From positions 1 through 64,000 of IMG/VR virus record IMGVR_UViG_3300045988_161114: a stretch of 64,000 nt of DNA, one strand, 5' to 3'. This stretch comes from a virus. The stretch's first letter is position 1, and every line of letters begins with the position of its first letter. Made by a program: the position numbers and the translations under genes. The notes under the pieces were generated by a model. The model had not been told where the DNA came from and ran no database searches. It worked only from the letters and a program-made list of their open reading frames with translations. Shown here in pieces: positions 4,485 through 26,145 of the stretch.

Positions 4485-4528
4485 TGTTGTTATTTTTGTT
4501 AGGCAAAGAAGTTACCTAGAAATGTAAA

Positions 4529-4556
4529 TGGCGCTAACATTTGGGCGCCAGCTTTT
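4529..4556 (+). terminator. GC hairpin with T-tract (terminator-like)
   Basis: Stem tggcgc / gcgcca, loop taacatttgg, then gctttta. It overlaps the 5' extension of ORF 4528..4908. Confidence 0.4.
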
Positions 4557-4587
4557 ACGCTGTATGCTAAATCACTATATTTTAAAT

Positions 4588-4908
4588 ATGAAAAATCCTT
4601 CGACTTATATTTTTAAAGAGTTGAAGAATGCGTTTGAAACATTTTGTGATTACGCAAAAATGAGTATTGTTTCTGATGCTCATTATATGTTTAGCAATGA
4701 CACTATCGCTAATACTGGAGTATTGGTATTAGCAACAAGTCATTTTGCTTGGCATACTTTTCCTGAACATGATTATATTTCGATTCAATATAGTACATGT
4801 TCAGAAGATAATTTAAGTGAAGATCAGGTTAAATCATTACTGGAATTATCATTTAAAAATAATAACATAAAATTTGGAGAAATTTTATGTTGTAAAGTGA
4901 TTTTTTAG
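4588..4908 (+). CDS. speD: S-adenosylmethionine decarboxylase-like (pyruvoyl, SpeH/SpeD class 1)
   Basis: VLVLATSHFAWHTFPEHDYISIQYSTCSED matches the family core ESH(I/L)xIHTWPE...D(I/V)FTCG. Start moved to the ATG at 4588, downstream of the hairpin; 4528 or 4564 remain possible. Confidence 0.5.
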   Translation: MKNPSTYIFKELKNAFETFCDYAKMSIVSDAHYMFSNDTIANTGVLVLATSHFAWHTFPEHDYISIQYSTCSEDNLSEDQVKSLLELSFKNNNIKFGEILCCKVIF

Positions 4909-6317: not shown

Positions 6318-6728
6318 ATGAATGAAATTAATGTTCGTATTACCGGCGTTGATTTGTCAAATATTGCCCTGTTGGGCGGTGAATTGACCATTACTGTTCC
6401 TGCTCGTTTGCCTAGCGCTGCTCAGGTTCTTAGCGGAAGTGATGTTCTTAGCGCTGTTCGTGGTTCTGGCTCTACTACTGTAGCTGTACAGACTCCGCAA
6501 GTATTGAGCGCGGCTAAACTTACTGGTCTTGTTAAAAAACAACCTTTGGTTGTTCTTGATGAAGATGCAGTTCGTGACGCAGTTCAATCTGATTTGGATT
6601 CTTTGATTGTGTTTAACACTGTTGAAGAGTTTAATGAATTTGTTCGTCAAGAAGGTTTGATCGGCGATCGTATTAAACTTCATGATGAATTTGGTAATGT
6701 TGTGGCTGTACACAGCATTCTTTCTTAA
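6318..6728 (+). CDS. hypothetical protein (first gene of the Ubl-cassette neighbourhood)
   Basis: 136-aa ORF, co-directional and tightly packed. No motifs recognised. Confidence 0.7.
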   Translation: MNEINVRITGVDLSNIALLGGELTITVPARLPSAAQVLSGSDVLSAVRGSGSTTVAVQTPQVLSAAKLTGLVKKQPLVVLDEDAVRDAVQSDLDSLIVFNTVEEFNEFVRQEGLIGDRIKLHDEFGNVVAVHSILS

Positions 6729-6755: not shown

Positions 6756-6950
6756 ATGTCTACTCAATACGTAAAAGGCTTCACTTACAATGGTGAAACT
6801 ACCACTTTCAATGGCGCTGTAGCCCCTGTTTCTGAAGTTTTGTCAGCTCTGGCTCAAGAACATCCTGTTCTAAATAATGCAGCTAACTACACTACCCAAA
6901 TTCAAGATGAAATTTTGGTAGTGTCACTGTCTACTGGCAGCAAAGCTTAA
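6756..6950 (+). CDS. candidate small ubiquitin-like (beta-grasp, Prok_Ub / PRTRC protein C-like) protein
   Basis: 64 aa. VKGFTYNGETTTFNG..VSEVLSALAQEHPVLNNA...ILVVSLSTGSKA resembles the Prok_Ub pattern as recalled (FxYNG..L..P....V...YA..YPEL..A....Y.F....GTKG). It lies upstream of the E2/JAB/E1 genes. Confidence 0.4.
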   Translation: MSTQYVKGFTYNGETTTFNGAVAPVSEVLSALAQEHPVLNNAANYTTQIQDEILVVSLSTGSKA

Positions 6951-7006
6951 TAAAGTTTTATAACTTTACAATTTGATTTATAAGAGATTCAGTTCTCATA
7001 AGAATT

Positions 7007-7052
7007 AAGGCACTTGTATACACTTTATATAGTATACAGGTGCCTTTTAAAT
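7007..7052 (+). terminator. rho-independent terminator
   Basis: 15-bp stem aaggcacttgtatac / gtatacaggtgcctt, followed by ttaaatttt. Confidence 0.65.
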
Positions 7053-7072
7053 TTTATAGAGGTTTATAATTT

Positions 7073-8332
7073 ATGTCTAATGTGTTAAATGTTAGCGACT
7101 TGCGTAGTCTTATATCTGGAAGTAGAAGAGTGGACATAGATGATAGTCCTCGTGGTGAAACTGCTACTTCAAGAATTTTAAGTAGACTTAATTTAAGTTA
7201 TGCGGATCCTCAAACAGGTTCTGATGTTCAGGTCTTTGCAATGCCAAGAGCTGCTGCTGAAAGAATTGCCGTTTCTGTTCCTACACCTTCAGCTGCCCCA
7301 TGTAATAATTATTTTGCTATTGGTCAATTAGGATTAGATGTTTCAGGAAATATTTCCATTTCTGCTGATCCACATCCAAGTGGAGCTTTGCTTTATAGCT
7401 TTAATCTTCATAATTATTCATATATATCTGATTCTAGTAGAAGATTAATTGAGTCTAAAATAGATGAAATTATATCAGTTATGAAGACGTTTAATCCATG
7501 TATTTCTAGAGATAGTATTACAGTACACGATGCAAGAATACTTGTTGAAAAATTGAAAATATCTTTATTTAGAAATTTCTCTTGGATAGAGTTAGGGTTT
7601 AATATTCAGACTAGAAGTATTATTTTAAATTTTGAATTTGTTTCAAGTTATACAGATGATGAATATGCTGACCCGAATTATTATCTAAGAGTTATTAGAC
7701 ATGAAGATTGTGATCCAATTCCTGAATGCATTATATCCACTGTTTCTGAATATTTGTCCGCTTTAGATAAACGTCATTTATCATTGTTCACCGAAGAAGA
7801 GCATGCAAATTTCGAAGACTTTTTTGACGAATATGCGTCTAGATGGAATATTGAATTCAGATCTTATCTTGATGATGGGATTATATCTCTTGTTATTGAT
7901 GATATAGGTGATGTAGAGGATCATGTATTAGAACCTGTGGAAAATGAAATGAGTACTAGTGAATCCTCTAGCAGGGTGTTGTCTCTGCTTAGCTCTTCTC
8001 TTATTAAGGATAAAACTAAAGTAAAAGAAGTCGAAAAGCCTAAAGAAGAGAAAATTCTATTTAATACTTTTGAGGAAAGATTTAAATATATTCTTGACTC
8101 TGCTCAAGATATAAAAGAGATTGAAGAACCTCCTCTTTTGAAAAAGCTTGAGGAAGCACGTAGTAGTGCTTATCTTTCTAGAGAAGAAGTTGTTGCTTTT
8201 GCTGAATCTAATATTAATGAAATTATTGAAAAATATAAAAAAGATTTAGCTATTCATTCTAGAAAACCAATGAGAAATTCTATTAGAAATATTAAATTTC
8301 TTCCTCAAGTTCAACTTATTACTTATTTTTAA
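7073..8332 (+). CDS. hypothetical protein
   Basis: 419-aa ORF with an acidic K/E-rich C-terminal third. No motifs recognised. Confidence 0.75.
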   Translation: MSNVLNVSDLRSLISGSRRVDIDDSPRGETATSRILSRLNLSYADPQTGSDVQVFAMPRAAAERIAVSVPTPSAAPCNNYFAIGQLGLDVSGNISISADPHPSGALLYSFNLHNYSYISDSSRRLIESKIDEIISVMKTFNPCISRDSITVHDARILVEKLKISLFRNFSWIELGFNIQTRSIILNFEFVSSYTDDEYADPNYYLRVIRHEDCDPIPECIISTVSEYLSALDKRHLSLFTEEEHANFEDFFDEYASRWNIEFRSYLDDGIISLVIDDIGDVEDHVLEPVENEMSTSESSSRVLSLLSSSLIKDKTKVKEVEKPKEEKILFNTFEERFKYILDSAQDIKEIEEPPLLKKLEEARSSAYLSREEVVAFAESNINEIIEKYKKDLAIHSRKPMRNSIRNIKFLPQVQLITYF

Positions 8333-8344
8333 TAGGTTAAAATA

Positions 8345-9787
8345 ATGAATGAACATATAGTTTATAAAGCTGCTTTAAATTCTTTAAAGTATACTTTTGA
8401 AGATTTTGGATTATCTAAAACGTTTAAATATAATGGCGATCCTAATAATTTTACTAGGACATATAAGTCTCAAATTGGGAATTTAATTAAGCTTGCTTTT
8501 GAAACAGAAGCTGAATCTAATTCTATAAATTTGATTAATCTTAATAAAAATGTTACGATTACCCTTGAGAAAGTTATTATCAATATTGATGGCAGAGTTC
8601 AAATTGATTCTCTGCCTAGAACTGTAAATGATCTTCAAGATTATCAAAAAGGTGCTTATAAGTTTTTCTTATTTGTAAATTATCCTATGTTCTTTGGTAT
8701 TCAGAATATGTCTGCTGAAGAATTTAATGAGATTAAAAGAGCTAAAAGTTCTACTACTCATAGTGGCAAAATAACGCTAGATGGATATGATATTTGGTAT
8801 AAGGCTATCGGCGGCGATGCTTTTAAATCTGAATTTGCACATCATGTGTCTAAATATTCTGCTCTTTCACATGATGATGTAAGAATCAGCAATGATCAAA
8901 TAGATAATATTTTACAGCTTATTTATGCACATAACTTTATCATTGATGATTATAAAGATATAGATATTTCAAAGCTTAAACTATTTTTTGATGTTGCTAA
9001 TCTTCAATACATTAAAAATGAGAGCGGACTAACTGTTAATGGTTCTGCACCGCCTTTGTATAGAGATGACACTCTTAGTGAGATGAATCTCAATTACGCC
9101 GTTAATAGTGTTGGTGAAATTCCATATGCTGACCCTAATTTTGGATACCACATCTATGAAGGTTTTAATTATGATTTGGTATTAAATAGTGAGAATATGA
9201 AATGCCACAGAATTGATTATATGGCATATGGCTTTAATAACTATTCTACAAGAATGGGAATGGGTTATAAAAATCTTATTAGAACTACTAAATTTGATTA
9301 TTATGAAAGCGAATTTAGTAGAGATTATTCTGAATCACTATTGCTTCAAAAACTTTTTGTATTGTCAATTGTAGCATTAAATTTTGCTACTTTGTCTGGT
9401 GCTACTGCAAGTAACTTTAACAAAGATCAAATACTTAAGTATTATAATCAATTTTCTAATAATATTTCATGTAAGAATTTTTATATTGCCCGCGGTAATT
9501 TTGGACAATATAAAAATAGATTATTTGTTTCTAATAACCCTTCAGATACACCTGCAAATCTTTCATGGGATAATAAATTTTACGATACTACCTTGTTCTT
9601 ATTTAGCAATGATTATACAACAAAATTCTTCATAGTTAATAAGACTGAGGATATCAAAATTGGTATATCTAGACAATCTGGTTTTTATGACAGTATATTG
9701 ATTCCTCATGAAGATTATCTGAATCCTGATAAGCTTACTCCTATTATTAAAAATAGAACAAGAGAAATTTTAAATGCAATTAGATAA
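8345..9787 (+). CDS. hypothetical protein
   Basis: 480-aa ORF whose end overlaps the start of the E2-like gene by 14 nt (translational coupling). Confidence 0.75.
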   Translation: MNEHIVYKAALNSLKYTFEDFGLSKTFKYNGDPNNFTRTYKSQIGNLIKLAFETEAESNSINLINLNKNVTITLEKVIINIDGRVQIDSLPRTVNDLQDYQKGAYKFFLFVNYPMFFGIQNMSAEEFNEIKRAKSSTTHSGKITLDGYDIWYKAIGGDAFKSEFAHHVSKYSALSHDDVRISNDQIDNILQLIYAHNFIIDDYKDIDISKLKLFFDVANLQYIKNESGLTVNGSAPPLYRDDTLSEMNLNYAVNSVGEIPYADPNFGYHIYEGFNYDLVLNSENMKCHRIDYMAYGFNNYSTRMGMGYKNLIRTTKFDYYESEFSRDYSESLLLQKLFVLSIVALNFATLSGATASNFNKDQILKYYNQFSNNISCKNFYIARGNFGQYKNRLFVSNNPSDTPANLSWDNKFYDTTLFLFSNDYTTKFFIVNKTEDIKIGISRQSGFYDSILIPHEDYLNPDKLTPIIKNRTREILNAIR

Positions 9788-10535
9788 TGTCACTTTTAAA
9801 ATCGTAGATAATGATCTTGTAAATCTCGTTATCGAAGAGAATGGTAAAAAATCTACAAAAGTTGTTCAACTTAAAGATTTTATAACTGCTTTTACAGATT
9901 CTACTAGTGTAGAGGAAACTCCTCTTATGCCAGCATCTGTTATTAAATATTGGAAGAATGGTCCAAATACTGTTATCTTTTTGAATAAACCTGGAAGAAA
10001 CGTAGATATGATTTCTTCCTATTCTAAGGATCCCATTCCTATTCGTATTCCAAATACTGTTTATGCTTTAAAATTTAAAAATAATCGGTTAATTAAAACA
10101 ATTATTGGGTCTTATGATGACAAACGTTTGACTAAGAATACAAAAATTTTTAAATTTCCGATGCATAACTATAGTTCAACTTTTAGTCCTGGCATTTGTT
10201 GGGGCTCTAATTTTGATATGGTTGAATCTGTATGTGCAGGTATGGATCTCTTTAATATTGAAACAATACCAGACTTGTATTGGGCTAGTAAGTTCAATAC
10301 AGATTTAGGTGGTGATTGCAGTATTAAGGCTCCATTTGAAGAATTAAGAGAATCTGCGCTTAGAAATGGAATGCCAGAAGGTGTTATGGAGCAGGCATCT
10401 AGATTTAATAGATTTGTTAAACTTTGTGCATTAATGCGCTTTAATCCTGCATTAAAATTTGACGTTTCTAATTATCTGGATGGTGTATCAGCAGATAATT
10501 TGGAAGCTTTTATTTCTCTTAACTGTAGAGTATAA
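9774..10535 (+). CDS. E2/UBC-like protein (prokaryotic E2 family candidate)
   Basis: FPMHNYSSTFSPGICWGSNF resembles the UBC catalytic loop HPN-x(5-8)-G-x-I-C-L. The gene lies directly upstream of JAB and E1, the order seen in Bil/PRTRC-type operons. Confidence 0.5.
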   Translation: MQLDNVTFKIVDNDLVNLVIEENGKKSTKVVQLKDFITAFTDSTSVEETPLMPASVIKYWKNGPNTVIFLNKPGRNVDMISSYSKDPIPIRIPNTVYALKFKNNRLIKTIIGSYDDKRLTKNTKIFKFPMHNYSSTFSPGICWGSNFDMVESVCAGMDLFNIETIPDLYWASKFNTDLGGDCSIKAPFEELRESALRNGMPEGVMEQASRFNRFVKLCALMRFNPALKFDVSNYLDGVSADNLEAFISLNCRV

Positions 10536-10538
10536 ATT

Positions 10539-11948
10539 ATGACAGTAACGAATACTACTATTGGTGGCAGCGATCAAGCTGCCGCTACTGCTAATCCGGC
10601 TCCTGTTATGAGTCTGGCTGCATTATCATCTCTTATTACTGGCGTTGAAAAACCTGAAGTCTTTATTGGCGAAAAAGGTAAAAAACGTGGTGATATTTCT
10701 ATAATGCAGGACGGTATGTACCGTATTTTTTCTTCGCCTATTGGCGACTTTTTTATTCTTAAAGACGAATTTAAGAATAAGCTTTTCCACCTGCCTGAGG
10801 GCAAAGTTACATTTACTCCTAATCCTGATTTCCCTAAAATTCCAGGACGTTATTATAAAGCTATTTGTGATTTTTATAAAACCATTTATGCTACCAATAA
10901 GAACGAAGTAATGGCTCAAATCTGGTGGGATAAAGAACTAAAAGAATTCTTTATTGAGGTTCCTGTTCAACGTGTTGCTGCTGCTAGTATTTCTTTTGAT
11001 AAAACTGGTCCATTCTATGATGACCCTAATAAGGTCCTTGTAGTAACAAGTCATTCTCATCATACTATGGGTGCTTTTTATAGTGGAACTGATAAATCTG
11101 ATGAAGCTAAACACAATGGTATTTATTCATTTGTATTTGGCGGATTAAAAATTAATCCTGATGGTACTTATACTAACACTACAGTACAGCGTTGTGTTTA
11201 TGATAAGTATGAGTTTTTACTTCAATTGTCAGATATTTTTGATTTAGAGGATCCTCTTATCGGGACTATTTCTATTCCTGAAAGTGAATATTCTAAAGTT
11301 ACAGCAATTAATGCTGCCCCTAAATATCCTTCTCATTTGACTGGATATTCTTATGGTAAAACTGGCAGTAATTCTAATGTCAAAAAAGGTGGCCATCAAC
11401 ATTACAATGGTAAAGGATGGAAACCAGGCATTGATTATAATCTTTGGGATTATGATTTTGCTGACGAAGATTATTCTGATCTTTATAATTCTGTAATGTC
11501 CGTAAATAATAATAATCCTGGCTATGGGCATAATCCATTCCCTCATCCTGTTAAGATGAATATGTGGGATTATGTTGACCCTGTTGATTACGATGGAATT
11601 TTTGAACAATATTGCGGTGACTCAACTGGATTTACTACAGAAGAAATTCAAGAAATTTATAAAGCCGGCTCAGTCATTATAGACATTTTGCAGAAAAAAG
11701 CTGGCAGTTATGACAAAAATTGTTGTCTTGTACAATCGTTCATAGATACAATTGCTAGCCATGATGTGTCTGATAAACTTGAAAAAACAATTTTTAATGG
11801 CTTAATGCATGGTATTCATGCATATATGCTTAAAAGTAGTAAAGCTATAGATGAAGACATTGACTCTTTTGTAGAAGAGATAGGAATGGTTAGGTATAGT
11901 ATTCAAGACTGTATTGTTAAAAAAGACCCTTTTAAAAACGTTCCATAG
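10539..11948 (+). CDS. JAB/MPN (JAMM) metallopeptidase domain protein with long C-terminal extension
   Basis: Glu in FFIEVPVQ, then VVTSHSHHTMGAFYSGTD, which gives H-x-H-x7-S-x2-D, the complete JAMM motif. 469 aa. Confidence 0.75.
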   Translation: MTVTNTTIGGSDQAAATANPAPVMSLAALSSLITGVEKPEVFIGEKGKKRGDISIMQDGMYRIFSSPIGDFFILKDEFKNKLFHLPEGKVTFTPNPDFPKIPGRYYKAICDFYKTIYATNKNEVMAQIWWDKELKEFFIEVPVQRVAAASISFDKTGPFYDDPNKVLVVTSHSHHTMGAFYSGTDKSDEAKHNGIYSFVFGGLKINPDGTYTNTTVQRCVYDKYEFLLQLSDIFDLEDPLIGTISIPESEYSKVTAINAAPKYPSHLTGYSYGKTGSNSNVKKGGHQHYNGKGWKPGIDYNLWDYDFADEDYSDLYNSVMSVNNNNPGYGHNPFPHPVKMNMWDYVDPVDYDGIFEQYCGDSTGFTTEEIQEIYKAGSVIIDILQKKAGSYDKNCCLVQSFIDTIASHDVSDKLEKTIFNGLMHGIHAYMLKSSKAIDEDIDSFVEEIGMVRYSIQDCIVKKDPFKNVP

Positions 11949-11955
11949 TTTATGC

Positions 11956-11979
11956 TGGGGCCTAGTGCCCCATTTTTTC
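11956..11979 (+). terminator. rho-independent terminator
   Basis: Stem tggggc / gcccca, loop ctagt, then tttttt. Confidence 0.6.
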
Positions 11980-12002
11980 TAATATTTTATATTGGATTTT
12001 AA

Positions 12003-13676
12003 ATGAGTATTTATAGAGAAGTAAAAGATAGTTCATCTCAAACGTATCAAATTATTAGTGATGAACAACGTCAACGTACAGACTTTTTAAATAAAAAAGC
12101 CGAAGAGATTGGCAAGAAGGCCTTTTTGAAAGGCGGCTTGCAATATCTATTTTCTGTAAAAGATTTGAATAAATTTTATACAGATCCTACACCTGAAATT
12201 AAATTAGGCAAAGTAACTGTAATTGGATGTGGCGGTACTGGTTCATGGTTAATGCCTAAGTTGGCTAAAACTATTAATGATTTAATTCGTAAAAATATTA
12301 TTTTTAAAGACAGTTTTTGTTTAAATCTTGTTGATTTCGACACGGTTAACCTGATTTTTCTAACCGGCCGTGTATAAATTTGCCCTAATTGACTTGGACC
12401 TCTGGCATAACAGAAAACAAGGCGCAAGCAGAGGTTATCCCTCGTGCAGCGTGAACGACTAATGCGGGTGAACACTTAATTGTGAAGCGATAGTCTGTAC
12501 TGCATCGGAAATATGCGATTAAGAGATGCAGAGCAAGGCGGAACAGAAACGACCTTGCCCTTACTTTATGTAAGAGTAACAATAAGCGAAACTAAAAATC
12601 TTGTGCGGCAGAACTTTATTGAGGCTGATATTGGTAAAAATAAAGCTGAAGTAATGGCTATGCGTTATGGATCTACGTTGTCTGAAGGTACTCAATGTGT
12701 ATTTTATGACAAGTATCTTGCACTAGATCCTTCTAAAAAAGAACATCCAGAAGCGTTTATCTCTTTTGATGATGTTTTAGGTTCTACAATTAATAAAAAT
12801 AAATTTGTTAGTGTTATTTTCAATCTTGTGGATAATGATGTTGAGCGTCGTGAATTACATAAATGGATTCGTGATTCTAGATCTCCATACATAGTTATTG
12901 ATATTGGGAATGAACAGACTCATGGTCAGTTATTTGCGTCATATTATAATATGGCTAATATTGATCAGTCATATGAAAAATATGTCAAGAATGTTCCATT
13001 GATTCTTCAAGACTCTTTTGCTGAATATAATCAAGCGATTATTACATCAGATGAAGATGTAGTTGTATTCTCATGTGCAGAAGCTGATGTTTCTGAAGAA
13101 TTTCAAGATCAATTTTTAGTGGCAAATGATGTTGCAGCAACTGTTGGTCATTCATATTTTGTTACATTAATCGATAATCTCACTAAGCATAGATTTACAA
13201 GTCCTTTGCCTCAAGAGATTCGATTTAGTGCAATGTCTCCGGTTCTAGTAACTACTGAACGCAAAGTTTACAATGAGCATGTTCTTTCTTGTATTGAATC
13301 TGCAATTAAGCTTAAAGAAGCTATTGGTGAAGACCAAGTAAAAAGACTGTTTGATATCTTTGATAAAGTTATTTCTTCTCAAAGTTCTTTTGCTTCTAGC
13401 AATAATACTATCAGGATTATTCCTGAAGATGAAAGATGTTATGGCTGGTTTTCTGATTTTATCGATAGAAATATCGGTAATAAAAAGATCAACAAAGAAC
13501 TCAAAAAGCAATTACTAGATGCATGTGCCCCCTCAATGGCTTATCGTACCGGATATCCTAATAACTATAGAGTCAATTATTATGAAATTGATAAAGATTA
13601 TGGCCAATATCTTGGTTATTCTTTAGCCCTTCTTTATTGCGTTTATTCTGTTTTAAAGATTGCTCAATACATTTAA
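12003..13676 (+). CDS. ThiF/MoeB/E1-like adenylyltransferase, two exons: join(12003..12346,12587..13676)
   Basis: Rossmann motif VTVIGCGGTGSW. The spliced junction gives LVDFDTV|ETKNLVRQNFIEADIGKNKAEV, which restores the E1 motif D-x-D-x-V-E-x-x-N-L-x-R-Q...DIGxxKA. Unspliced, exon 1 runs into a stop codon. Confidence 0.75.
12347..12586 (+). mobile_element. group I intron (ORF-less, 240 nt) in the E1-like gene
   Basis: A GC-richer block splits a conserved motif. The exon ends in U (acggt|) and the intron ends in G (aataag|c). Core-like gcgatagtctgtactgcatcgg resembles the gatatagtctgctctgcatgg region of the T4 td intron. Confidence 0.75.
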
Positions 13677-13685
13677 TTAAAACAA

Positions 13686-13719
13686 GCCTGCACTAAATTT
13701 AAAAGTGCAGGCATTTTTA
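13686..13719 (+). terminator. rho-independent terminator
   Basis: Stem gcctgcact / agtgcaggc, then atttttatt. Confidence 0.7.
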
Positions 13720-13734
13720 TTATAAGAAAATAAT

Positions 13735-15834
13735 ATGTATAGATATATTACAGATAATAAGTTTTGGTATTCGCTTGTTGTTGTTACTTCTGGATATGCT
13801 AATAAGTGCTCTTTGATCTTAGATCAAATTATTAAAGGCGAATCCGCTATCAATAAGGACTTAGGTCAAAAATGTTATATTAAGAATAGTAAAGAAAACG
13901 TTACTAAATCTATAAACTTATTGAACCAATGTGTCAACAAGAATAAGTTTCGGGAAATGTACTTCCCCGATTTTGGTAGTAGAGCTGAATTATTAAATGC
14001 TTACTCTATTGTATCTGAATTTTTATCTGATTTTGCCGATACCATTCTGTTTAGAAATTATACAAATAGAAAGGGTCGCAAAATCACTGCAATGAATACT
14101 CTTTTATCTGAAGAAGATAGAGAGAATATAAAATATTTTCATCGGTTATATACAGCTATATTTGAATGTGAATATGATAGAGCACTTCACAATATGTGTT
14201 TGAGCGCCAATGTAATTGGGTTTAGAAAAAGCATGAGCATCGCTAATACTGTACATATGCTCAAATTTAATCGTATTGAAATTATAAATATAGACATTGC
14301 TAAATTTTTTAACAATGTTGATATGAAGAAATTTTTTGATAATGATGTTGTAAATATTCTTTTTAATTCTATTTTGGGTAATAAATATGAATATTTAGAA
14401 TATTTATTTGATAAGCCGCTTAATGTCTTTTCTTTGGATTATTCCAATAAGAATCCTAAAGATTTTGTAAGTTGCCCACCGTCTTTTAAATTTAATGGCA
14501 GTGATGTTATTTCTATAGTACCCTCTTTTGGCGGTACTGCTTTTATTCAAAGAAGGTCGAATAATGATAAGGCAAGATATGGAAGAATGTACAGCTTCTT
14601 ATTGTCTAACTCATCTAATGTTGGCAGTATTTATAAAGTAAATGATTCAGGTTATTCAATAAGATTAAGAGATCCTGGTATTCCAGATAAAAGGGAATTT
14701 TTCCTTCAATTCTTTTATCGAACTCTATCATTCTTAATGCATAATAATAAACTTCCCACAGGTGCTTCTTATAGTCCCGTCTTGAGTAATATATTTTTAC
14801 TTGATTTTGATATAAAGCTCAAAAAACTTCTCGATTCAATGTCTGTAAATACGAGATATAATTTTATTAGGTATGCTGATGATATAACTATTTATACTTC
14901 CAAGAAGAATATTATTAGTGAAACTGTTCTTCCTACTGATGGACGTATTAATTTATATCCTAATACAGATGATATTATTAGTTCTGACAATGAAATAGAT
15001 TTTTCTGTTGCTAAAAGAGTTGAAGAGCTTATTAATCAATACGGACTGTATTTAAATTATAGCAAGACTAAGATTTTTAGAAGGCATGAAGAAGCTTCTA
15101 TTTTAGGCTTAACTATACCAGCTGTTGATAAAGCTACTATTAGCGATATAAAAATCGGATCTTCAAGAAGAAAAGAAATGATTGATTTAATTTCTAATTC
15201 TTTAGATTTCGATTATGATTCTAAGACTAAAGGATTTTTATCCTATTGTATTACTAATGGCGGAATGAGAGATTTTGTGATTCATCATGGTATGAATTCT
15301 AAATTGAATGACCCTAGTTTAAAAAATATCTTTGAAAAGTATTTCAATAAGTCATCTTTTAATAGCTTCAGAGAATTGTTTTATGACATATCTAAAGATT
15401 CTAAGACTATAAGAATTACCATATTTAATGATCTTATCAGAATAAATTTCCATAATAGACTGGTAAATCATTATATGCATAATATAACTGTCAGGAAAGA
15501 TATAAATGTTTCTGAATTCTTTATTGCTCATGGTGACATATTTAATAATATAACTGTTTCCGAATTAAGACTTATGCTTATATATTATATAATGTATAAA
15601 GAATTTATATTTATTGGAAGTTATTTACGAAGAGATGAGGATAGAGTAAGGTTGTTACTTAAGTCTTATACACGAATGGGAAGTGTTATTGCTTTCCCGC
15701 TGGATGTATATTCTGACGCTATTAATGAAGAGTCCTATTATTCCGATTTAAGAAATATTTTTGAAGGCGATGAAAAAGCTTTAGAATATATAGATTTATT
15801 TGAGGCTATTGAAAATAGCAGAGGGGTAAATTAA
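13735..15834 (+). CDS. reverse transcriptase (stand-alone, 699 aa, unclassified lineage)
   Basis: RT motifs in order: A NIDIAKFFNNV; B LPTGASYSPVLSNIFLLDFD; C FIRYADDITIY; D/E LYLNYSKTKIF and ILGLTI. There is a ~170-aa N-terminal extension, an unusually long A-B spacer and a ~230-aa C-terminal extension. Confidence 0.85.
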   Translation: MYRYITDNKFWYSLVVVTSGYANKCSLILDQIIKGESAINKDLGQKCYIKNSKENVTKSINLLNQCVNKNKFREMYFPDFGSRAELLNAYSIVSEFLSDFADTILFRNYTNRKGRKITAMNTLLSEEDRENIKYFHRLYTAIFECEYDRALHNMCLSANVIGFRKSMSIANTVHMLKFNRIEIINIDIAKFFNNVDMKKFFDNDVVNILFNSILGNKYEYLEYLFDKPLNVFSLDYSNKNPKDFVSCPPSFKFNGSDVISIVPSFGGTAFIQRRSNNDKARYGRMYSFLLSNSSNVGSIYKVNDSGYSIRLRDPGIPDKREFFLQFFYRTLSFLMHNNKLPTGASYSPVLSNIFLLDFDIKLKKLLDSMSVNTRYNFIRYADDITIYTSKKNIISETVLPTDGRINLYPNTDDIISSDNEIDFSVAKRVEELINQYGLYLNYSKTKIFRRHEEASILGLTIPAVDKATISDIKIGSSRRKEMIDLISNSLDFDYDSKTKGFLSYCITNGGMRDFVIHHGMNSKLNDPSLKNIFEKYFNKSSFNSFRELFYDISKDSKTIRITIFNDLIRINFHNRLVNHYMHNITVRKDINVSEFFIAHGDIFNNITVSELRLMLIYYIMYKEFIFIGSYLRRDEDRVRLLLKSYTRMGSVIAFPLDVYSDAINEESYYSDLRNIFEGDEKALEYIDLFEAIENSRGVN

Positions 15835-18303: not shown

Positions 18304-20868
18304 ATGGCAAGAGTTGCAAAAGAAGTAAAAGAAGGCAAAGAAATAGTTGCCGAAAGTAGTTCTACTATATCTAAAGATGATAGAGCTGCGATAGAAATAC
18401 TGAAAAGAAGTATGAATAAAAAGTATGGTGATGGCGATCAAGTATTCATAACAGATTATGATATGGATCTTGAAGGTATCCCTACTGGTAGTGCAATATT
18501 GGATGCTCTTATTGGTAATGGTGGTTGGGCAGAAGGACGTGTTCATGAAATTCATGGGCAATCAGGTAGTGGTAAATCCTCTATTGTTACATTGACTTGT
18601 GCTAATGCACTTAAGAAGCATCCTGATAAATTTATACTATACATTGACGCAGAGCAAGCACAAAACTTCCGCTATATGAAGTTACTTGGACTTGATATGG
18701 AAAAAGATGATAGAATTCTTTTTACTCAGGTTAATTCTGCTGAAGAAGCATTTGATATTATAAATAATTCTATTAAAACAGGTGCATTTAGTCTTATCGT
18801 TTTAGATAGTGTGCCTGCAATACAAACTAAACGTGAAATGAGTGGTGATTTCACTCAAGAAACTATGGCCGAGAAGGCTAGGTTCCTGTCTAAATCTATC
18901 CCTCAATTATTGAAACCTCTGAAACGTTCTAATACTACTCTGATCTTTGTTAATCAAGTAAGGGACAAAATGGATCTTTGGGGTGGGATGGTAACTCCAG
19001 GTAATATAAGCTTTTATTTTTTGACATATCATGTTATAATAGTCTTAATATAGAAAACATTAATTGTTTTAATTTTAAGGTTATAATATGAGATGGTCAA
19101 AATCTGAAGACGATATAATAATTGATTTTATCAGAAATACAAATAATAGAACATTCAAAGATTTACATGAGATGTTTCCAGATAGAACTATATATTCTAT
19201 AAAAATGAGATACCGGTATCGTAAAAGAAATATGTCTGGTAATTATATAACAAAAATCTGGACCAAAGATAAAATAAATATTTTACTCGAAAATTATACT
19301 AATAAAAATATATATGAACTTAGTGAAATTCTCGATATTAAATATTCTACTATTCATGCTAAATTAAGGGATATGAATTTAGTCCCTAAACAAATATTAA
19401 AAAGCTATACAGAAGAAGATGATTTATTTATAAAGGAAAATTATAAAAAAATTAAAACTTCTGATATTGCTTTTGAACTTAAAGTATCTCCCGATGCTAT
19501 TATTCAGAGAGCAGCAAAATTAGGACTTAATACATCTAAAACTAAAAATTATACTGAAGATGAGAAAATTTTTATAATTGAAAATTATTCTAAAATTCCT
19601 ATTGCTGAAATTTCCAAAGTAACTGGAAGAAGTTATTCTTCTATAAATAGTTTTGCTAGAAGAAATAATTTAATTCCGTATAGTAAAATACTGTATGAAA
19701 ATAATGTTAAATTTATTTTGGAAAATTATGAGTCAATGACAGATTCCGAGATATCAAGAAAAATTTCTTTATCAATAGATGCTGTTGAAAATATCCGGAA
19801 AAATCATGGGATATATAAGTCCCCTGCGTTAATTAATGGGATTTCATCTATTGAAAAATTTGTAAAAAATGTTCTTGACGAATTATCCATTAAATATGTT
19901 TATTGTGCAGAACTTGGAAATTTTAAACCTGATTTTCTTTTAGAAAATGGTAAAATTATCGAAGTTAATGGTGATTATTGGCATTGTAATCCTCGTATTT
20001 ATGGCAATGGGCCAGAAGATGAGATACAAGTTAAGCATGTATTAAGAGATTATTCTAAGAAATGTTATTATTTGTCAAATAATATCGATTATATAGAGGT
20101 CTGGGAACATGATATTAATCATAACCCAAACCTAATTGTCGAACAGATAAAGGCTTTCTGCCGTTCATAGTAGAAATATTATGAATTATTATAGCGGAAT
20201 TAAGCGAGAAAATCCTCCCTGTTTCATAGGACAACTCGAACCGAAGGCTAGCTTTAAAAGGCTGGTCAGGGGCAACGCATAGAAGCTGAAACTAATAAAA
20301 AGAATATAATGCTTCCACGAGGCCGCTATACCTAAGTCTTTTTAGATATGGTAAAAAAATATGCTGAACTACATTGTAATGATGTAGAAGCAAAGATAAA
20401 AAACTTTGCGATAACAAATTGGGAAGAGCAATTCCATTTTACTCAAGTACACGTGTTAAAGTTAACTCTACTCCATCTATGCGAATAAAAGGATTAAATG
20501 ATAATTATATTGGCCAAAGAGTAGAATTTTCTGTTGTTAAAAATAAAGTTGGCAATCCGTTTGGCGTTGCTGAAAGCAATCTTTATTTTGGTGTAGGTTT
20601 TAATCCTGTTGAAGAATTAGTTTCTACAGCTGTTAAAGCTGGTATTATCACTAGGGCTGGTTCATGGTTTACTATCCCAGTTAAAAATGATAAAGACGAA
20701 TATATTAAATGTCAGGGTGAAAACGGCTGTTGTGTTTATTATAAAGAGCATCTAGATCATTTAGAAGAATTAAGACAAATTGTTAATAAACATAAAGATT
20801 CTATTTTTGATCAAATGTCTGATGAAGATGTAAAAGAGGCATCTGAAAGTGAAGTATTAGATGAGTAA
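18304..20868 (+). CDS. recA: RecA-family recombinase, two exons: join(18304..19002,20422..20868)
   Basis: IPTGSAILDALIGNGGWAEGRVHEIHGQSGSGKSS (Walker A) and LIFVNQVRDKM. The spliced junction GMVTPG|GRAIPFYSSTRVKV restores the RecA motif TTGGNALKFYASVR. Confidence 0.85.
19003..20421 (+). mobile_element. group I intron (1419 nt) carrying a homing-endonuclease ORF
   Basis: The exon ends in U (ccaggt|) and the intron ends in G (aaattg|gga). The 3' ~250 nt (ggaattaagcgagaa...ccacgaggccg...aaatatgctgaac) is clearly homologous to the ORF-less dnaE introns at 29686 and 30414. Confidence 0.85.
19088..20170 (+). CDS. intron-encoded homing endonuclease: five HTH repeats plus a Vsr-like/PD-(D/E)XK nuclease domain
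   Basis: Five ~45-aa repeats (WSKSEDDIIIDF.., WTKDKINILLENY.., YTEEDDLFIKENY.., YTEDEKIFIIENY.., YENNVKFILENY..). These are followed by FKPDFLLENGKIIEVNGDYWHCNP...IEVWEHD. Confidence 0.65.
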   Translation: MRWSKSEDDIIIDFIRNTNNRTFKDLHEMFPDRTIYSIKMRYRYRKRNMSGNYITKIWTKDKINILLENYTNKNIYELSEILDIKYSTIHAKLRDMNLVPKQILKSYTEEDDLFIKENYKKIKTSDIAFELKVSPDAIIQRAAKLGLNTSKTKNYTEDEKIFIIENYSKIPIAEISKVTGRSYSSINSFARRNNLIPYSKILYENNVKFILENYESMTDSEISRKISLSIDAVENIRKNHGIYKSPALINGISSIEKFVKNVLDELSIKYVYCAELGNFKPDFLLENGKIIEVNGDYWHCNPRIYGNGPEDEIQVKHVLRDYSKKCYYLSNNIDYIEVWEHDINHNPNLIVEQIKAFCRS

Positions 20869-23479: not shown

Positions 23480-23497
23480 ATAGTTTCTTTTAGGTAT

Positions 23498-23519
23498 AGC
23501 CACTTTTAAGTAAGTGGCT
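23498..23519 (+). terminator. hairpin downstream of the dnaE N-fragment (weak terminator)
   Basis: 8-bp stem agccactt / aagtggct. The downstream T-tract is poor. Confidence 0.4.
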
Positions 23520-23588
23520 TATCATATATAAGATATAAGTGGATATACTTATCCCGTAGAATATATGATTTCTTTTTAAGGAAATAAA

Positions 23589-24439: not shown

Positions 24440-24445
24440 TATAAT

Positions 24446-24471
24446 AGCCTGCCTTATGGCGGGCTTTTTTA
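24446..24471 (+). terminator. rho-independent terminator
   Basis: Stem agcctgcc / ggcgggct, loop ttat, then tttttt. Confidence 0.7.
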
Positions 24472-24480
24472 GGACTTTAA

Positions 24481-26144: not shown

Positions 26145-26145
26145 T

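What the first reader, a model, noticed from the sequence alone, without database searches (positions are those of the whole stretch)
6756..13676. Phage-encoded ubiquitin-like conjugation cassette (Ubl candidate, E2-like, JAB, E1-like)
Seen in sequence: three consecutive co-directional genes carry the hallmarks of the E2 - deubiquitinase - E1 triad.
- 9774..10535 has FPMHNYSSTFSPGICWG, a UBC-like HPN...G-x-I-C loop.
- 10539..11948 has a complete JAMM motif: Glu, then HSHHTMGAFYSGTD.
- 12003..13676 has GCGGTGSW and, after intron removal, DFDTVETKNLVRQNF...DIGKNKA.
- 6756..6950, a few kb upstream in the same transcriptional direction, is a 64-aa ORF whose pattern recalls Prok_Ub / PRTRC protein C.
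- Two unknown proteins (419 and 480 aa) lie between it and the E2-like gene.

Established knowledge: E2/JAB/E1(+Ubl) operons are known as bacterial Bil and CBASS Cap2/Cap3 defence modules and as PRTRC cassettes on plasmids and ICEs.

Inference: here the set sits in a lytic-looking phage among replication genes. It could modify virion or host proteins, or counteract host Ubl-based defence. I am not aware of a functional description of a phage-borne version, which makes it the best candidate for a new system in this window.
Basis: partly seen in the sequence, partly recalled or inferred. Interest (0 to 1): 0.9.

Follow-up and report, generated by a model that had tools for sequence, protein, structure and literature searches.

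The report
Phage ubiquitin-like protein-tagging gene cassette
A large uncultivated phage carries an intact gene set for attaching a small ubiquitin-like protein to other proteins; it is a divergent relative of the 'PRTRC' cassette of plasmids, whose function I found tested nowhere, so the genes are real and the kind is known but the role is open.

Summary

- 9774-10535 is a Prok-E2_D protein, with an Asn and a Cys invariant in homologues.
- 10539-11948 is a JAB peptidase with a full JAMM motif. Its best family match is PRTRC_A.
- 12003-13676 is an E1 split by a 240-nt intron. Intronless homologues 94% and 74% identical align without a gap across the junction. The spliced protein best matches PRTRC_ThiF.
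- The 64-aa ORF 6756-6950 is a PRTRC_C-type Ubl. Profile-profile probability is 91-92%, the C-terminus G-x-K-[G/A] is shared, and the model has a beta-beta-alpha-beta-beta order.

The gene order Ubl, variable protein(s), E2, JAB, E1 matches canonical PRTRC (operon type '6d' of Iyer et al. 2006). Canonical PRTRC is already annotated in Ralstonia phage Dina. Partial annotations exist in Acinetobacter phage ME3, and Salmonella phage Arash carries unannotated homologues.

So this is a divergent phage lineage of a known family whose function is untested. It differs in four ways:
- no ParB and no detectable PRTRC_E or PRTRC_F;
- no conserved His after the E2 Cys;
- long C-terminal extensions on JAB and E1;
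- conserved synteny inside the replication block of ~165-185 kb phage contigs, next to a reverse transcriptase.

The targets and the biological role remain inferred.

The parts
6318..6728 (+). 136-aa protein directly upstream of the Ubl gene. It is the positional counterpart of PRTRC_E, and its membership in the cassette is uncertain.
   Evidence: A 100-159 aa ORF sits at this position in all five phage lineages. It has an Ala/Ser/Val-rich middle. No Pfam or NCBIfam hit. No profile similarity to PRTRC_E. It evolves fast: 22 synonymous against 30 non-synonymous codon changes versus L001.
6756..6950 (+). Ubiquitin-like protein (64 aa), a homologue of PRTRC protein C. Its C-terminus is ...T-G61-S-K63-A64.
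   Evidence: hhalign of the phage family against PRTRC_C gives 92.3% (E 5.4e-7) and 90.6%; negative controls stay below 2%. Gly61 and Lys63 are invariant in 10 sequences and the alignment is collinear. The AF2 model has pLDDT 88.6 with a beta-beta-alpha-(alpha)-beta-beta order and a disordered 62-64 tail. Purifying selection is clear. Foldseek against the PDB was inconclusive. No direct Pfam or NCBIfam hit.
7073..8332 (+). X1, 419 aa, unknown. Only the C-terminal ~100 aa recur in one other lineage, where the protein is 120 aa (a 104-123 aa protein holds this position in the others).
   Evidence: phmmer to the 120-aa L002 protein, E 1.5e-8. No family hits.
8345..9787 (+). X2, 480 aa, unknown and fast-diverging. 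It sits between the Ubl and the E2, where PRTRC has protein F.
   Evidence: A 286-480 aa ORF holds this position in five of the six lineages examined (L001, L002, L006, L007, L008; ME3 lacks one). These proteins are not detectably similar to each other or to PRTRC_F. A HMMER scan of 1.84 billion representatives found only close relatives. The AF2 model is unusable at pLDDT 35.
9774..10535 (+). E2-like protein (253 aa), family Prok-E2_D / PRTRC_B. The candidate catalytic Cys142 is encoded at 10197-10199.
   Evidence: Pfam Prok-E2_D 26.2 bits, above the gathering score of 25. Pro93, Asn132, Cys142 and Gly144 are invariant in 6 phage and 5 PRTRC_B sequences. hhalign of phage E2s against PRTRC_B gives 87.7%, P 3.4e-6.
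10539..11948 (+). JAB/JAMM metallopeptidase (469 aa) with the PRTRC_A-type N-terminal domain and a ~250-aa C-terminal extension of unknown function.
   Evidence: NCBIfam PRTRC_A E 6.6e-11. Pfam Prok-JAB E 1.2e-4. Glu123 and His172 are invariant, and the H172-S-H174...S182...D185 motif is present. hhalign against PRTRC_A gives 97.8%.
11956..11972 (+). GC-rich hairpin followed by a T-run, lying between the JAB stop codon and the E1 start codon. It is a possible attenuator or terminator.
   Evidence: Best-scoring terminator-like site in 4-17 kb: 6 bp stem, 5 of them GC, followed by TTTTTT. This is a consensus match only.
12003..12346 (+). E1 exon 1 (residues 1-115), carrying the GCGGTG nucleotide-binding loop and Asp111.
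12347..12586 (+). 240-nt intron, probably group I, inserted inside the codons of the DxDxVExxNLxRQ ATP-site motif.
   Evidence: Absent from the 94%- and 74%-identical homologues. The related IMG/VR contig L005 has a 1231-nt insert at the same site; its first 216 nt are 95% identical and it carries a 318-aa double-LAGLIDADG ORF. The 5' exon ends in U and the intron ends in G. Exon 12340-12346 (ACACGGU) pairs with intron 12367-12373 (GCCGUGU), giving a U.G pair at the splice site. GC is 0.44 against 0.32 in the exons. No Rfam hit even at E<=10. The folding z-score of -1.3 is not significant.
12587..13676 (+). E1 exon 2 (residues 116-477). It carries NLxRQ, Lys134, Asp197 and the invariant Cys278 in the 'SCAE' motif, plus a ~150-aa C-terminal extension.
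   Evidence: The spliced protein hits PRTRC_ThiF at E 6.9e-17. Invariant residues are listed. The best PDB profile matches are UBA3, then a ThiF-type protein, MccB, UBA1 and SAE2.
13735..15834 (+). 699-aa reverse transcriptase, a conserved neighbour. A functional link to the cassette is unproven.
   Evidence: RVT_1 E 7e-14, with weak retron or group II-like matches limited to residues ~330-460. It lies directly after the E1 in the loci of L001, L002, L003/L004 and L007, and three genes later in L006. It is absent next to the cassette in L008, ME3, Arash and Dina.

Best explanation
The region encodes a complete, intact ubiquitin-like protein conjugation pathway. It belongs to the PRTRC family (operon type '6d' of Iyer et al. 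2006) and is carried as a conserved module by a clade of ~165-185 kb uncultivated phages.

Proposed mechanism:
1. The 64-aa beta-grasp-like protein ends in G-S-K-A, so its C-terminal carboxylate is probably already exposed. Orthologues with extra residues after the G-x-K-[G/A] motif would first be trimmed by the JAB peptidase.
2. The E1, after its intron is spliced out, adenylates that C-terminus with ATP. It probably then takes the Ubl onto its invariant Cys278 as a thioester.
3. The Ubl passes to Cys142 of the E2-like protein.
4. The E2 transfers it to a lysine of one or more target proteins. Target choice is probably made by the fast-diverging protein(s) encoded between the Ubl and E2 genes (X2, perhaps X1).
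5. The JAB metallopeptidase reverses or edits the conjugates.

Biological role, which is the least certain step: the family occurs on phages, plasmids and ICEs, and here it is fixed inside the early replication and recombination block. I therefore think it serves the mobile element during establishment or replication, by tagging a host factor or one of the element's own DNA-handling proteins. I do not think it acts as a host anti-phage defence.

Shown: homology of the four parts, intact catalytic residues, conservation and synteny. Inferred: every chemical step, the targets and the role.

Approximate confidence by claim: about 0.9 that it is a PRTRC/6d-type homologue set, about 0.6 that it performs thioester-based Ubl-protein conjugation, and about 0.3 for the pro-phage establishment or replication role.
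For: Four homologous parts lie in the canonical order. PRTRC on pHG1, pPRO1 and phage Dina reads E-C(Ubl)-F-B(E2)-A(JAB)-ThiF. The window reads 136aa-Ubl-X1-X2-E2-JAB-E1.

Family and profile support:
- E2: Prok-E2_D above the gathering score.
- JAB: PRTRC_A, E 6.6e-11.
- E1: PRTRC_ThiF is the best of 14 NCBIfam hits, E 6.9e-17.
- Ubl against PRTRC_C: hhalign 92.3% and 90.6%. E2 and JAB act as positive controls at 87.7% and 97.8%. All negative controls are below 2%.

Catalytic residues are invariant across lineages that share only 17-40% identity:
- E2: Asn132 and Cys142.
- JAB: Glu123 and His172, within the HxH...S...D motif.
- E1: GxGGxG, Asp111, Asn119, Arg122, Gln123, Lys134, Asp197 and Cys278.

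Ubl evidence:
- Gly61 and Lys63 are invariant.
- The chain ends right after the motif in 7 of 10 aligned sequences. Three carry extra residues that would need trimming.
- The same ending occurs in L008 (...AGTKG) and ME3 gp322 (...GNKAA).
- The AF2 model has pLDDT 88.6, a beta-beta-alpha-beta-beta order and a flexible tail.

Other support:
- The E1 profile scores best against NEDD8, ubiquitin and SUMO E1s in the PDB.
- The module sits at the same locus (Whirly ... RuvC/RecA/DnaE) in five lineages whose E1s are only 28-47% identical to the window's (alignment-wide 28-40%; best local 36-47%). This argues for long vertical retention.
- Mobile inserts hit the catalytic-motif codons of the E1 (window, L005) and of the JAB HxH motif (L007, ME3). 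This is the usual signature of strongly constrained sequence.
- The family is found on plasmids, ICEs and phages (PMC1779556).
Against: - There is no biochemical evidence for any member of the PRTRC/6d family. I found no functional paper.
- Scores against the curated PRTRC models are far below their trusted cut-offs: 42 against 102 bits, and 62 against 145 bits. PRTRC_B, C, E and F models do not hit at all.
- Foldseek did not confirm a beta-grasp fold for the Ubl model; the best hit had E 0.2.
- The Ubl lacks a Gly-Gly end.
- The His that is 'absolutely conserved' after the Cys in 6d E2s (PMC1779556) is not conserved in the phage E2s.
- Bub pathways show that E1/E2 relatives can use oxyester rather than thioester chemistry (PMC11601596), so the thioester route is an assumption.
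- No target, E3 or adaptor has been identified. X1 and X2 have no detectable relatives or fold.
- A terminator-like hairpin separates the JAB and E1 genes.
- The pro-phage role rests only on gene location and family distribution.
Confidence: 0.6

Rival explanations
1. Counter-defence by deconjugation. The JAB peptidase is the effector: it strips host Ubl-type defence conjugates (Bil Ubl on tail proteins, or cGAS conjugates of type II CBASS). The Ubl, E1 and E2 act as decoys or competitors for the host machinery.
For: Bil and type II CBASS defences work through Ubl-like conjugation, and their own JAB enzymes reverse it (PMC11601596, PMC10557695, PMC10097602). The JAMM site here is intact. The fast-evolving partners X2 and PRTRC_F fit an arms race.
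Against: A deconjugase alone would not need a co-conserved Ubl, E1 Cys and E2 Cys in every lineage. The JAB is closest to PRTRC_A, and no PADLOC model hit it, including any CBASS-associated JAB models that library holds. The cassette is syntenic and long retained in this clade, unlike typical variable anti-defence genes.
Confidence: 0.12
2. The Ubl system works together with the adjacent reverse transcriptase. For example, it might tag or prime the RT or its product as part of one replication or conflict module.
For: The RT gene follows the E1 directly in the loci of L001, L002, L003/L004 and L007, and is three genes away in L006. Another E1-bearing phage contig (L010) also has an RT about 8 kb away.
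Against: The whole region is syntenic in this clade, so adjacency alone is weak evidence. Cassettes in L008, ME3, Arash, Dina and the plasmids have no RT. The RT matches known families only in its palm motifs.
Confidence: 0.1
3. A sulfur-carrier or other non-protein adenylation pathway of the ThiS/MoaD-ThiF/MoeB or MccB type. It would serve, for example, thiolation or a nucleotide or DNA modification, rather than protein tagging.
For: The E1 is a ThiF-fold adenylating enzyme, and ThiF, MoeB, TcdA and MccB all appear among weaker hits. The phage encodes many nucleotide and polyamine-related enzymes: DHFR, AdoMet decarboxylase, a spermidine-synthase-like protein and a radical SAM protein.
Against: An E2-like protein with an invariant Cys and a JAB peptidase are co-conserved. 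No rhodanese domain or ThiG/MoaE partner gave a Pfam hit in the E1 or in the scanned neighbouring ORFs. The Ubl ends in -KA or -KG, not -GG. PRTRC_ThiF is the best family hit by 23 bits, and UBA3 is the best PDB hit.
Confidence: 0.07
4. A selfish, addiction-like pair of opposing activities (conjugation against deconjugation). It would persist on mobile elements without a dedicated role in infection, as Iyer et al. speculated for these mobile operons.
For: The family has a patchy, mobile distribution (PMC1779556). Only ~10-13 of 50,697 phage records (8 named phages plus one metagenomic record) carry the phage-type JAB+E1.
Against: In this clade the module stays at a fixed locus through deep divergence, with all catalytic residues kept. 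A lytic-looking phage gains little from post-segregational killing.
Confidence: 0.08

Closest known systems
PRTRC system (TIGR03735-03742), the same as operon type '6d' of Iyer, Burroughs & Aravind 2006. Found on plasmids and ICEs such as C. necator pHG1 and P. propionicus pPRO1.
   Same: It has the same four core parts in the same order: a small Ubl ending G-x-K-[G/A], an E2 of family Prok-E2_D lacking the classical His, a JAB with an extra N-terminal domain, and a ThiF-type E1. A fast-diverging protein lies between the Ubl and E2 genes. It is carried by a mobile element. Its function is untested.
   Different: No ParB-family gene. No detectable PRTRC_E or PRTRC_F homologue. An extra gene (X1). 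The E2 lacks the conserved His after the Cys and has a nearly invariant Asn one position earlier. The JAB and E1 are about 200 aa longer. All scores fall below the curated PRTRC cut-offs. The E1 carries an intron. The cassette sits in a large lytic-looking phage.
Phage copies already in GenBank: Ralstonia phage Dina (annotated PRTRC E-C-F-B-A-ThiF), Burkholderia phage BgVeeders33, Acinetobacter jumbo phage vB_AbaM_ME3, Salmonella phage Arash, Vibrio phages D69/D181/D148, and Bacillus phages WH1, Edson and KLEB27-3.
   Same: ME3 has a Ubl (gp322, ending GNKAA), an E2 (gp325), a split JAB (gp326 + gp131) and an E1 (gp130). Arash has an E2, JAB and E1 (gp248c-246c). In a phmmer search of the proteins collected here, the ME3 and Arash E1s score far better against the phage-clade E1s (E 1e-41 to 1e-15) than against plasmid PRTRC ThiF (E 1e-11 to 1e-6).
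   Different: Identity to the window proteins is only 26-39% by tblastn. None has an adjacent RT. ME3 lacks a large X2. Dina's cassette is the canonical plasmid type in a 39-kb phage. None has been studied functionally.
Bil (BilABCD; '6C') anti-phage systems.
   Same: Separate Ubl, E2, JAB and E1 genes. Ubl-to-lysine conjugation without a recognisable E3, with the E2 proposed to pick the targets (PMC11601596, PMC10557695).
   Different: Bil is a host defence. [quoted passage not shown] Here the E1 has a single adenylation domain, and the E2 matches Prok-E2_D. I ran no direct comparison with Bil sequences.
Type II CBASS Cap2/Cap3 ('6B').
   Same: E1, E2 and JAB chemistry. There are weak PADLOC 'E1-E2' hits to the adenylation domain (33 bits).
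   Different: Cap2 is an E2-E1 fusion that conjugates a CD-NTase, and there is no free Ubl. The scanned neighbouring ORFs gave no Pfam hit to a CD-NTase or a CBASS effector, and the cassette has a free Ubl.
Bub ('6E', DUF6527) pathways.
   Same: A divergent bacterial Ubl, E1 and E2 set with unusual features.
   Different: Bub E1 and E2 lack catalytic Cys residues and use oxyesters, and Bub includes a DUF6527 serine protease (PMC11601596). Here both Cys residues are invariant and the peptidase is a JAMM enzyme.
ThiS/MoaD-ThiF/MoeB sulfur-carrier systems.
   Same: A ThiF-fold adenylating enzyme and a small protein predicted to be beta-grasp-like.
   Different: Those systems have no E2 and a Gly-Gly C-terminus, and they sit next to biosynthetic partner genes. 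None of that applies here.

Membership tests
PRTRC / Iyer 6d operon | Small standalone Ubl with a highly conserved Gly at the C-terminus (PRTRC_C / Prok_Ub) | tested here: met
   hhalign against PRTRC_C gives 92.3% and 90.6% with clean negative controls. Gly61 and Lys63 are invariant and the C-terminus is G-x-K-[G/A]. The curated HMMs themselves give no hit at E<=1. The AF2 secondary-structure order is compatible with a beta-grasp. Foldseek was inconclusive.
PRTRC / Iyer 6d operon | E2-like protein with a conserved Cys, lacking the classical E2 His (Prok-E2_D / PRTRC_B) | tested here: met
   Prok-E2_D scores 26.2 bits, above the gathering score of 25. Asn132 and Cys142 are invariant, and His131 is not conserved. 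hhalign against PRTRC_B gives 87.7%. The TIGR03737 model does not hit the window protein.
PRTRC / Iyer 6d operon | An absolutely conserved His C-terminal to the E2 Cys (PMC1779556) | tested here: not met
   In alignment A1, four of five PRTRC_B sequences have F-[TS]-H. The phage E2s have T, C, G, Y, T or D at that column, and Asn in 5 of 6 at the column before it.
PRTRC / Iyer 6d operon | JAB peptidase with an N-terminal alpha+beta domain (JAB-N, conserved Arg and Trp) / PRTRC_A | tested here: inconclusive
   PRTRC_A gives E 6.6e-11 over model positions 59-172, but 42 bits is well below the cut-off of 101.8. The JAMM motif is complete. Trp (IWWDK) and Arg (YRI) are present in the window protein but not in all phage homologues. 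hhalign gives 97.8%.
PRTRC / Iyer 6d operon | ThiF-family E1 of the PRTRC type | tested here: inconclusive
   It is the best NCBIfam hit (61.6 bits, E 6.9e-17) but falls below the cut-off of 144.75. All adenylation residues and one Cys are invariant in the alignment with PRTRC ThiF.
PRTRC / Iyer 6d operon | Largely alpha-helical, rapidly diverging protein between the Ubl and E2 genes (PRTRC_F) | tested here: inconclusive
   A 480-aa ORF occupies the position, but there is no profile similarity. The PRTRC_F proteins of Dina and pHG1 are themselves mutually undetectable by phmmer. The AF2 model of X2 is unusable at pLDDT 35.
PRTRC / Iyer 6d operon | PRTRC_E protein upstream of the Ubl | tested here: not met
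   A 136-aa ORF occupies the position, but hhalign probability is 0.3%.
PRTRC / Iyer 6d operon | Associated ParB-family protein (the 'PR' of PRTRC) | tested here: not met
   No ParB domain appeared in any of the 39 + strand ORFs of 64 aa or more between 2.6 and 46 kb that I scanned with Pfam. Seven ORFs of 100 aa or more in that span, all shorter ORFs and part of the - strand were not scanned. Phage Dina also lacks an annotated ParB next to its cassette.
Type II CBASS (Cap2/Cap3) | E2-E1 fusion protein plus a CD-NTase and an effector, with no free Ubl | tested here: not met
   The E1 and E2 are separate genes. There are only weak PADLOC E1-E2 hits to the Rossmann region (33 bits or less). A free Ubl is present.
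Bil (BilABCD) | [quoted passage not shown] | not tested
   There was no direct comparison with Bil sequences or structures. Family hits to the E1 cover a single ThiF-type adenylation region (residues ~65-310); the C-terminal ~150 aa has no assignment. The E2 matches Prok-E2_D.
ThiS/MoaD sulfur-carrier systems | Ubl ending in Gly-Gly; no E2; biosynthetic or sulfurtransferase partners | tested here: not met
   The C-terminus is -GSKA. An E2 and a JAB are present. ThiF and MoeB models score 23-45 bits below PRTRC_ThiF. No partner enzymes were found in the neighbours.
Group I intron (for the 240-nt insert) | Conserved catalytic core (P3-P9) recognisable by a covariance model; U.G pair at the 5' splice site in P1; terminal G | tested here: inconclusive
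   No Rfam hit at E<=10. A 7-bp P1 with a U.G pair at the splice site and a terminal G are present. A variant carrying a LAGLIDADG ORF sits at the same site in L005, and intronless alleles exist.

The most novel reading that the evidence does not exclude
Ubiquitin-like protein conjugation is a long-retained, vertically inherited function of a whole clade of large human-oral phages, and more broadly of PRTRC-bearing plasmids and phages. It would be used by the mobile element itself to tag host or self proteins during genome establishment and replication. It might work together with the neighbouring reverse transcriptase. That would make it a prokaryotic-virus counterpart of viral manipulation of ubiquitin signalling in eukaryotes, and it would give a function to the last of Iyer's E1/E2/JAB operon families for which I found no functional study.
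Probability: 0.2. Interest if true: 0.85.

Novelty: new variant of a known kind. Interest (0 to 1): 0.6.

Why it matters
Of the five bacterial E1/E2/JAB operon families defined in 2006, three now have characterised biochemistry: 6B as type II CBASS, 6C as Bil and 6E as Bub. 6A now carries an anti-phage name in NCBIfam. CBASS and Bil are proven host anti-phage defences, and Bub is suggested to be one.

I found no functional study of 6D/PRTRC. This locus shows that 6D has a distinct lineage that is fixed in the replication block of large phages, with every catalytic residue kept. That points away from host defence and towards a function that serves the mobile element.

The same phage-type cassette is present in cultured phages (Acinetobacter ME3, Salmonella Arash) and the canonical type in Ralstonia Dina. 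The question can therefore be tested directly.

The invariant Lys just before the C-terminal residue predicts a simple mass-spectrometry signature: a single Ala or Gly left on the target lysine after trypsin digestion.

Tried and rejected
- Megablast of the cassette, and tblastn of the 1212-aa structural protein, against INPHARED found nothing. The phage clade has no deposited relative there.
- Rfam found nothing for the intron, at gathering score or at E<=10. Folding energy was not significant, z -1.3.
- Pfam, NCBIfam, PHROGs and PADLOC gave no meaningful hit for the 64-aa, 419-aa, 480-aa and 136-aa proteins.
- The word-index homologue search for the Ubl and for X2 returned only close relatives.
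- The full HMMER scan of 1.84 billion representatives with X2 returned only close relatives, plus one weak repeat-protein hit.
- The AF2 model of X2 reached only pLDDT 35 and was discarded. No fold search was run on it.
- Foldseek of the confident Ubl model against the PDB gave no hit better than E 0.2. Protein G B1 and the USP14 Ubl domain appeared among the weak hits, so the beta-grasp assignment rests on topology and homology to PRTRC_C, not on Foldseek.
- Profile searches of the E2, JAB and Ubl alignments against PDB sequences found no relatives.
- hhalign of X1, X2 and the 136-aa protein against PRTRC_E, F and ParB was all negative.
- The search for related loci with the mixed E2 alignment failed because no block was conserved enough.
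- I first suspected a crAss-like (zeta or epsilon) phage because of genome size and introns. I could not support this: those groups use PolA or PolB, or lack a polymerase, whereas this phage has a split DnaE.
- I first considered cleavage after Gly61 as the maturation step. I now favour an exposed -K-[A/G] end, because 7 of 10 aligned family members terminate exactly there.
- The Arash GenBank record labels its E1 and E2 homologues 'structural protein'. The paper re-annotated proteins that way after LC-MS of a particle preparation in which 116 proteins were detected, including RNR and ligases (PMC10585845). Its Gp numbering may not match the record's locus tags. I therefore did not take this as evidence of virion packaging.

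Full report
**1. The observation**

The window is phage-like:
- seven tRNAs at 241-2297;
- a + strand block with DHFR, AdoMet decarboxylase, SpoVG, a Whirly-type ssDNA-binding protein, RuvC, RecA, split DnaE, primase-helicase, RNR and DNA ligase;
- a - strand block with endolysin and tail or virion-like proteins.

It has no nucleotide or structural-protein relative in INPHARED. It does have close relatives on 165-185 kb metagenomic contigs, at least one of them from a human oral sample, and one IMG/VR UViG of 181.6 kb.

**2. The three enzymes**

*E2.* The 253-aa protein hits Pfam Prok-E2_D just above the gathering score (26.2 against 25 bits, E 7.6e-6). I aligned it with five phage orthologues and five annotated PRTRC_B proteins. 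Pro93, Asn132, Cys142 and Gly144 are invariant although identity is only 10-22%. The His of 'MHN' is not conserved. This agrees with the published description of this E2 family as lacking the classical His (PMC1779556).

*JAB.* The 469-aa protein hits PRTRC_A (E 6.6e-11) and Prok-JAB. It keeps the full JAMM set of Glu123, His172-x-His174, Ser182 and Asp185. It also has a ~250-aa C-terminal extension that plasmid PRTRC_A lacks.

*E1.* The gene is interrupted. Joining 12003-12346 to 12587-13676 gives a 477-aa protein. Its best family is PRTRC_ThiF (E 6.9e-17, 23 bits ahead of any ThiF or MoeB model). Uninterrupted homologues 94% and 74% identical align without a gap across the junction DFDTV|ETKNL. 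Invariant residues include GxGGxG, Asp111, Asn119, Arg122, Gln123, Lys134, Asp197 and a single Cys (Cys278, 'SCAE'). From general knowledge of ThiF and MoeB, that Cys lies roughly where their crossover-loop Cys lies (the positional equivalence is my inference). A profile of these E1s scores best in the PDB against the NEDD8 E1 UBA3 (6e-10). A ThiF-type protein, MccB, UBA1 and SAE2 follow, with E. coli ThiF at 1.4e-5.

**3. The small protein**

The 64-aa ORF has no direct HMM hit but is a real gene:
- It has 16 synonymous against 4 non-synonymous codon differences from the L001 orthologue.
- A 61-66 aa ORF sits at the same place in four further lineages, all ending in G-[S/N]-K-A.

Aligned with annotated PRTRC_C proteins it is collinear. 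It shares the F-x-Y-N-G and [Y/H]-P-x-L motifs, and Gly61 and Lys63 are invariant. The chain ends one residue later in 7 of 10 sequences. Profile-profile comparison gives 92.3% (E 5.4e-7). With a slightly different sequence set it gives 90.6%. The E2 and JAB positive controls give 87.7% and 97.8%, and nine negative controls give at most 1.6%.

AlphaFold2 on a shallow alignment gave a confident model (pLDDT 88.6, pTM 0.72). It has two strands, a helix, a short helix and two strands, with a disordered three-residue tail. That order fits a minimal beta-grasp. Foldseek against the PDB found nothing significant, so I count the fold test as inconclusive.

The same C-terminal signature appears in a 249-kb contig (L008...AGTKG) and in gp322 of the cultured Acinetobacter jumbo phage ME3 (...GNKAA).

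**4. What family it is**

Canonical PRTRC reads (ParB)-E-C-F-B-A-ThiF on C. necator pHG1 and the P. propionicus and P. aeruginosa plasmids. It reads E-C-F-B-A-ThiF in Ralstonia phage Dina. The window reads 136aa-Ubl-X1-X2-E2-JAB-E1.

This is operon type '6d' of Iyer et al. 2006: a small Ubl with a conserved C-terminal Gly, a rapidly diverging helical protein, an E2 without the classical His, a JAB with an extra N-terminal domain, and an E1 (PMC1779556).

Four parts are homologous. The other positions are filled by proteins with no detectable similarity to PRTRC_E, F or ParB. The proteins at the 'F' position are mutually undetectable even between two bona fide PRTRC loci and between phage lineages. 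The published remark that this component diverges rapidly therefore applies here too, and homology of X2 to PRTRC_F can be neither shown nor excluded. X2 resisted every approach.

**5. Differences from canonical PRTRC**

- No ParB was found among the 39 scanned + strand ORFs between 2.6 and 46 kb.
- There is an extra gene (X1). Its conserved core is a ~100-aa C-terminal domain.
- The His reported as absolutely conserved after the E2 Cys is absent, and an Asn one position earlier is nearly invariant instead.
- The JAB and E1 carry long C-terminal extensions.
- All scores lie well below the curated PRTRC cut-offs.
- The module sits between the Whirly gene and the RT/RuvC/RecA/DnaE genes in five lineages whose E1s are only 28-47% identical to the window's. 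This argues for long vertical retention rather than recent acquisition.
- A 699-aa reverse transcriptase follows the E1 directly in most of these lineages. It is absent from cassettes in other phages and plasmids, so I treat the link as unproven.

**6. Distribution**

tblastn of the E1 and JAB against 50,697 phage records finds adjacent JAB and E1 genes in only a handful of mostly large phages. These are ME3, Arash, Vibrio D69/D181/D148, Bacillus WH1, Edson and KLEB27-3, and one faecal contig. Canonical PRTRC occurs in Dina, and BgVeeders33 has a related E1.

In ME3 I could assign the Ubl (gp322), E2 (gp325), a split JAB (gp326 + gp131) and the E1 (gp130). In Arash I could assign the E2, JAB and E1.

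Phage-borne copies are therefore already in public records, some with PRTRC annotation. I found no paper that tests the function of PRTRC/6d anywhere, and none that describes a phage version. The sister families have been characterised: CBASS type II, Bil and Bub (PMC11601596, PMC10557695).

**7. The intron**

The 240-nt insert (12347-12586) has these properties:
- GC of 0.44 against 0.32 in the exons.
- It follows a U and ends in G.
- It can form a 7-bp P1 between exon 12340-12346 and intron 12367-12373, with a U.G pair at the splice site.
- The IMG/VR relative L005 has the same insert at the same site, enlarged to 1231 nt by a double-LAGLIDADG ORF. Other close relatives lack it.

That pattern is typical of a mobile group I intron. 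However, no Rfam model matches, so the class remains probable rather than shown.

Independent inserts also split the JAB gene exactly at its HxH zinc-site codons, in L007 (with a LAGLIDADG ORF) and in ME3. Homing elements usually settle in the most constrained codons. I read this as further, indirect evidence that these active sites are under selection.

**8. Mechanism and role**

The best-supported mechanism is classical. The E1 adenylates the exposed -K-A carboxylate. A thioester forms on E1 Cys278 and the Ubl transfers to E2 Cys142. It is then conjugated to target lysines, with X2 and/or X1 as likely specificity factors. The JAB trims extended precursors and removes conjugates.

Only the presence and conservation of the parts is shown. 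The chemistry is inferred by homology, and Bub shows that such inference can fail in detail.

For the role I commit, with low confidence, to a function that serves the phage during establishment or replication. The reasons are that the family is restricted to mobile elements, the module has a fixed place in the replication block, and one component evolves fast. The rival readings and their tests are listed separately: JAB-centred counter-defence, coupling to the RT, sulfur or small-molecule chemistry, and a selfish addiction-like module.

**9. Verdict**

The finding is real and correctly interpreted in kind. It is a divergent phage lineage of a family that has been known bioinformatically since 2006 and for which I found no functional study. 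It is not a categorically new system.

Its value lies in three things. It points to a pro-element role for the one E1/E2/JAB operon family for which I found no functional study. It identifies cultured phages in which that role can be tested. And it predicts a simple mass-spectrometry signature.

Noticed in passing
window 13735-15834 (+): A 699-aa reverse transcriptase with ~330-aa N-terminal and ~240-aa C-terminal regions of unknown function. It matches retron, group II and DRT models only in the palm motifs. It lies directly after the E1 gene in several related phage lineages. No DGR-like features were looked for.
   Followed up: partly
window 18304-20868 (+): recA is split. The N-terminal part is at 18304-19053 and the C-terminal part at 20419-20868. 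They are separated by a 360-aa ORF (19088-20170) with Myb/HTH domains and a weak endonuclease I-like match. RecA is a single 381-aa gene in relative L001. This is probably another mobile intron or homing-endonuclease insertion.
   Followed up: partly
window 22118-32089 (+): The DnaE-type polymerase is in at least three pieces: PHP plus pol3-alpha N-terminal part at 22118-23479, a pol3-alpha fragment fused to a weak, sub-threshold intein splicing-domain match (23.4 bits against a cut-off of 35.8) at 28874-29707, and HHH_6 plus OB domains at 30653-32089. Unrelated genes lie between the pieces, including radical SAM and spermidine-synthase-like genes.
   Followed up: no
window 4528-4908 and 26041-26799 (+): An AdoMet decarboxylase-like gene and a spermine/spermidine synthase-like gene sit in the same phage, together with a radical SAM enzyme at 24481-25584. 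This suggests polyamine synthesis or a polyamine-type nucleic-acid modification.
   Followed up: no
L007 7723-9988; L011 (Acinetobacter phage ME3) 2736-5846: In two unrelated carriers the JAB gene of the cassette is split exactly at the H|xH zinc-site codons. In L007 the insert carries a reverse-strand LAGLIDADG ORF. In ME3 the insert is ~2 kb and carries tRNA-Met and three small ORFs.
   Followed up: partly
L005 12549-13779: The E1 intron of the IMG/VR relative carries a 318-aa double-LAGLIDADG homing endonuclease ORF (12831-13787). The window's copy of the intron lacks it.
   Followed up: yes
window 11956-11972 (+): A strong terminator-like hairpin (TGGGGC-CTAGT-GCCCCA followed by TTTTTT) lies in the 54-nt gap between the JAB and E1 genes. 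It could uncouple or attenuate E1 expression.
   Followed up: no
window ~46000-64000: The strand switches near 46.5 kb and the GC skew changes sign. The - strand block (endolysin at 46607-47398, tail or virion-like proteins up to 1212 aa) has higher GC (0.37-0.41 at 48-56 kb) than the ~0.30 of the replication block. The 1212-aa protein has no tblastn match in INPHARED.
   Followed up: partly
L012 (Salmonella phage Arash) 1519-4539: The E2- and E1-like homologues are annotated 'structural protein' in the GenBank record. The paper re-annotated proteins that way after LC-MS of a particle preparation in which 116 proteins were detected (PMC10585845). Its Gp numbering may not match the record's locus tags. 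Whether the Ubl machinery is truly packaged is open.
   Followed up: partly
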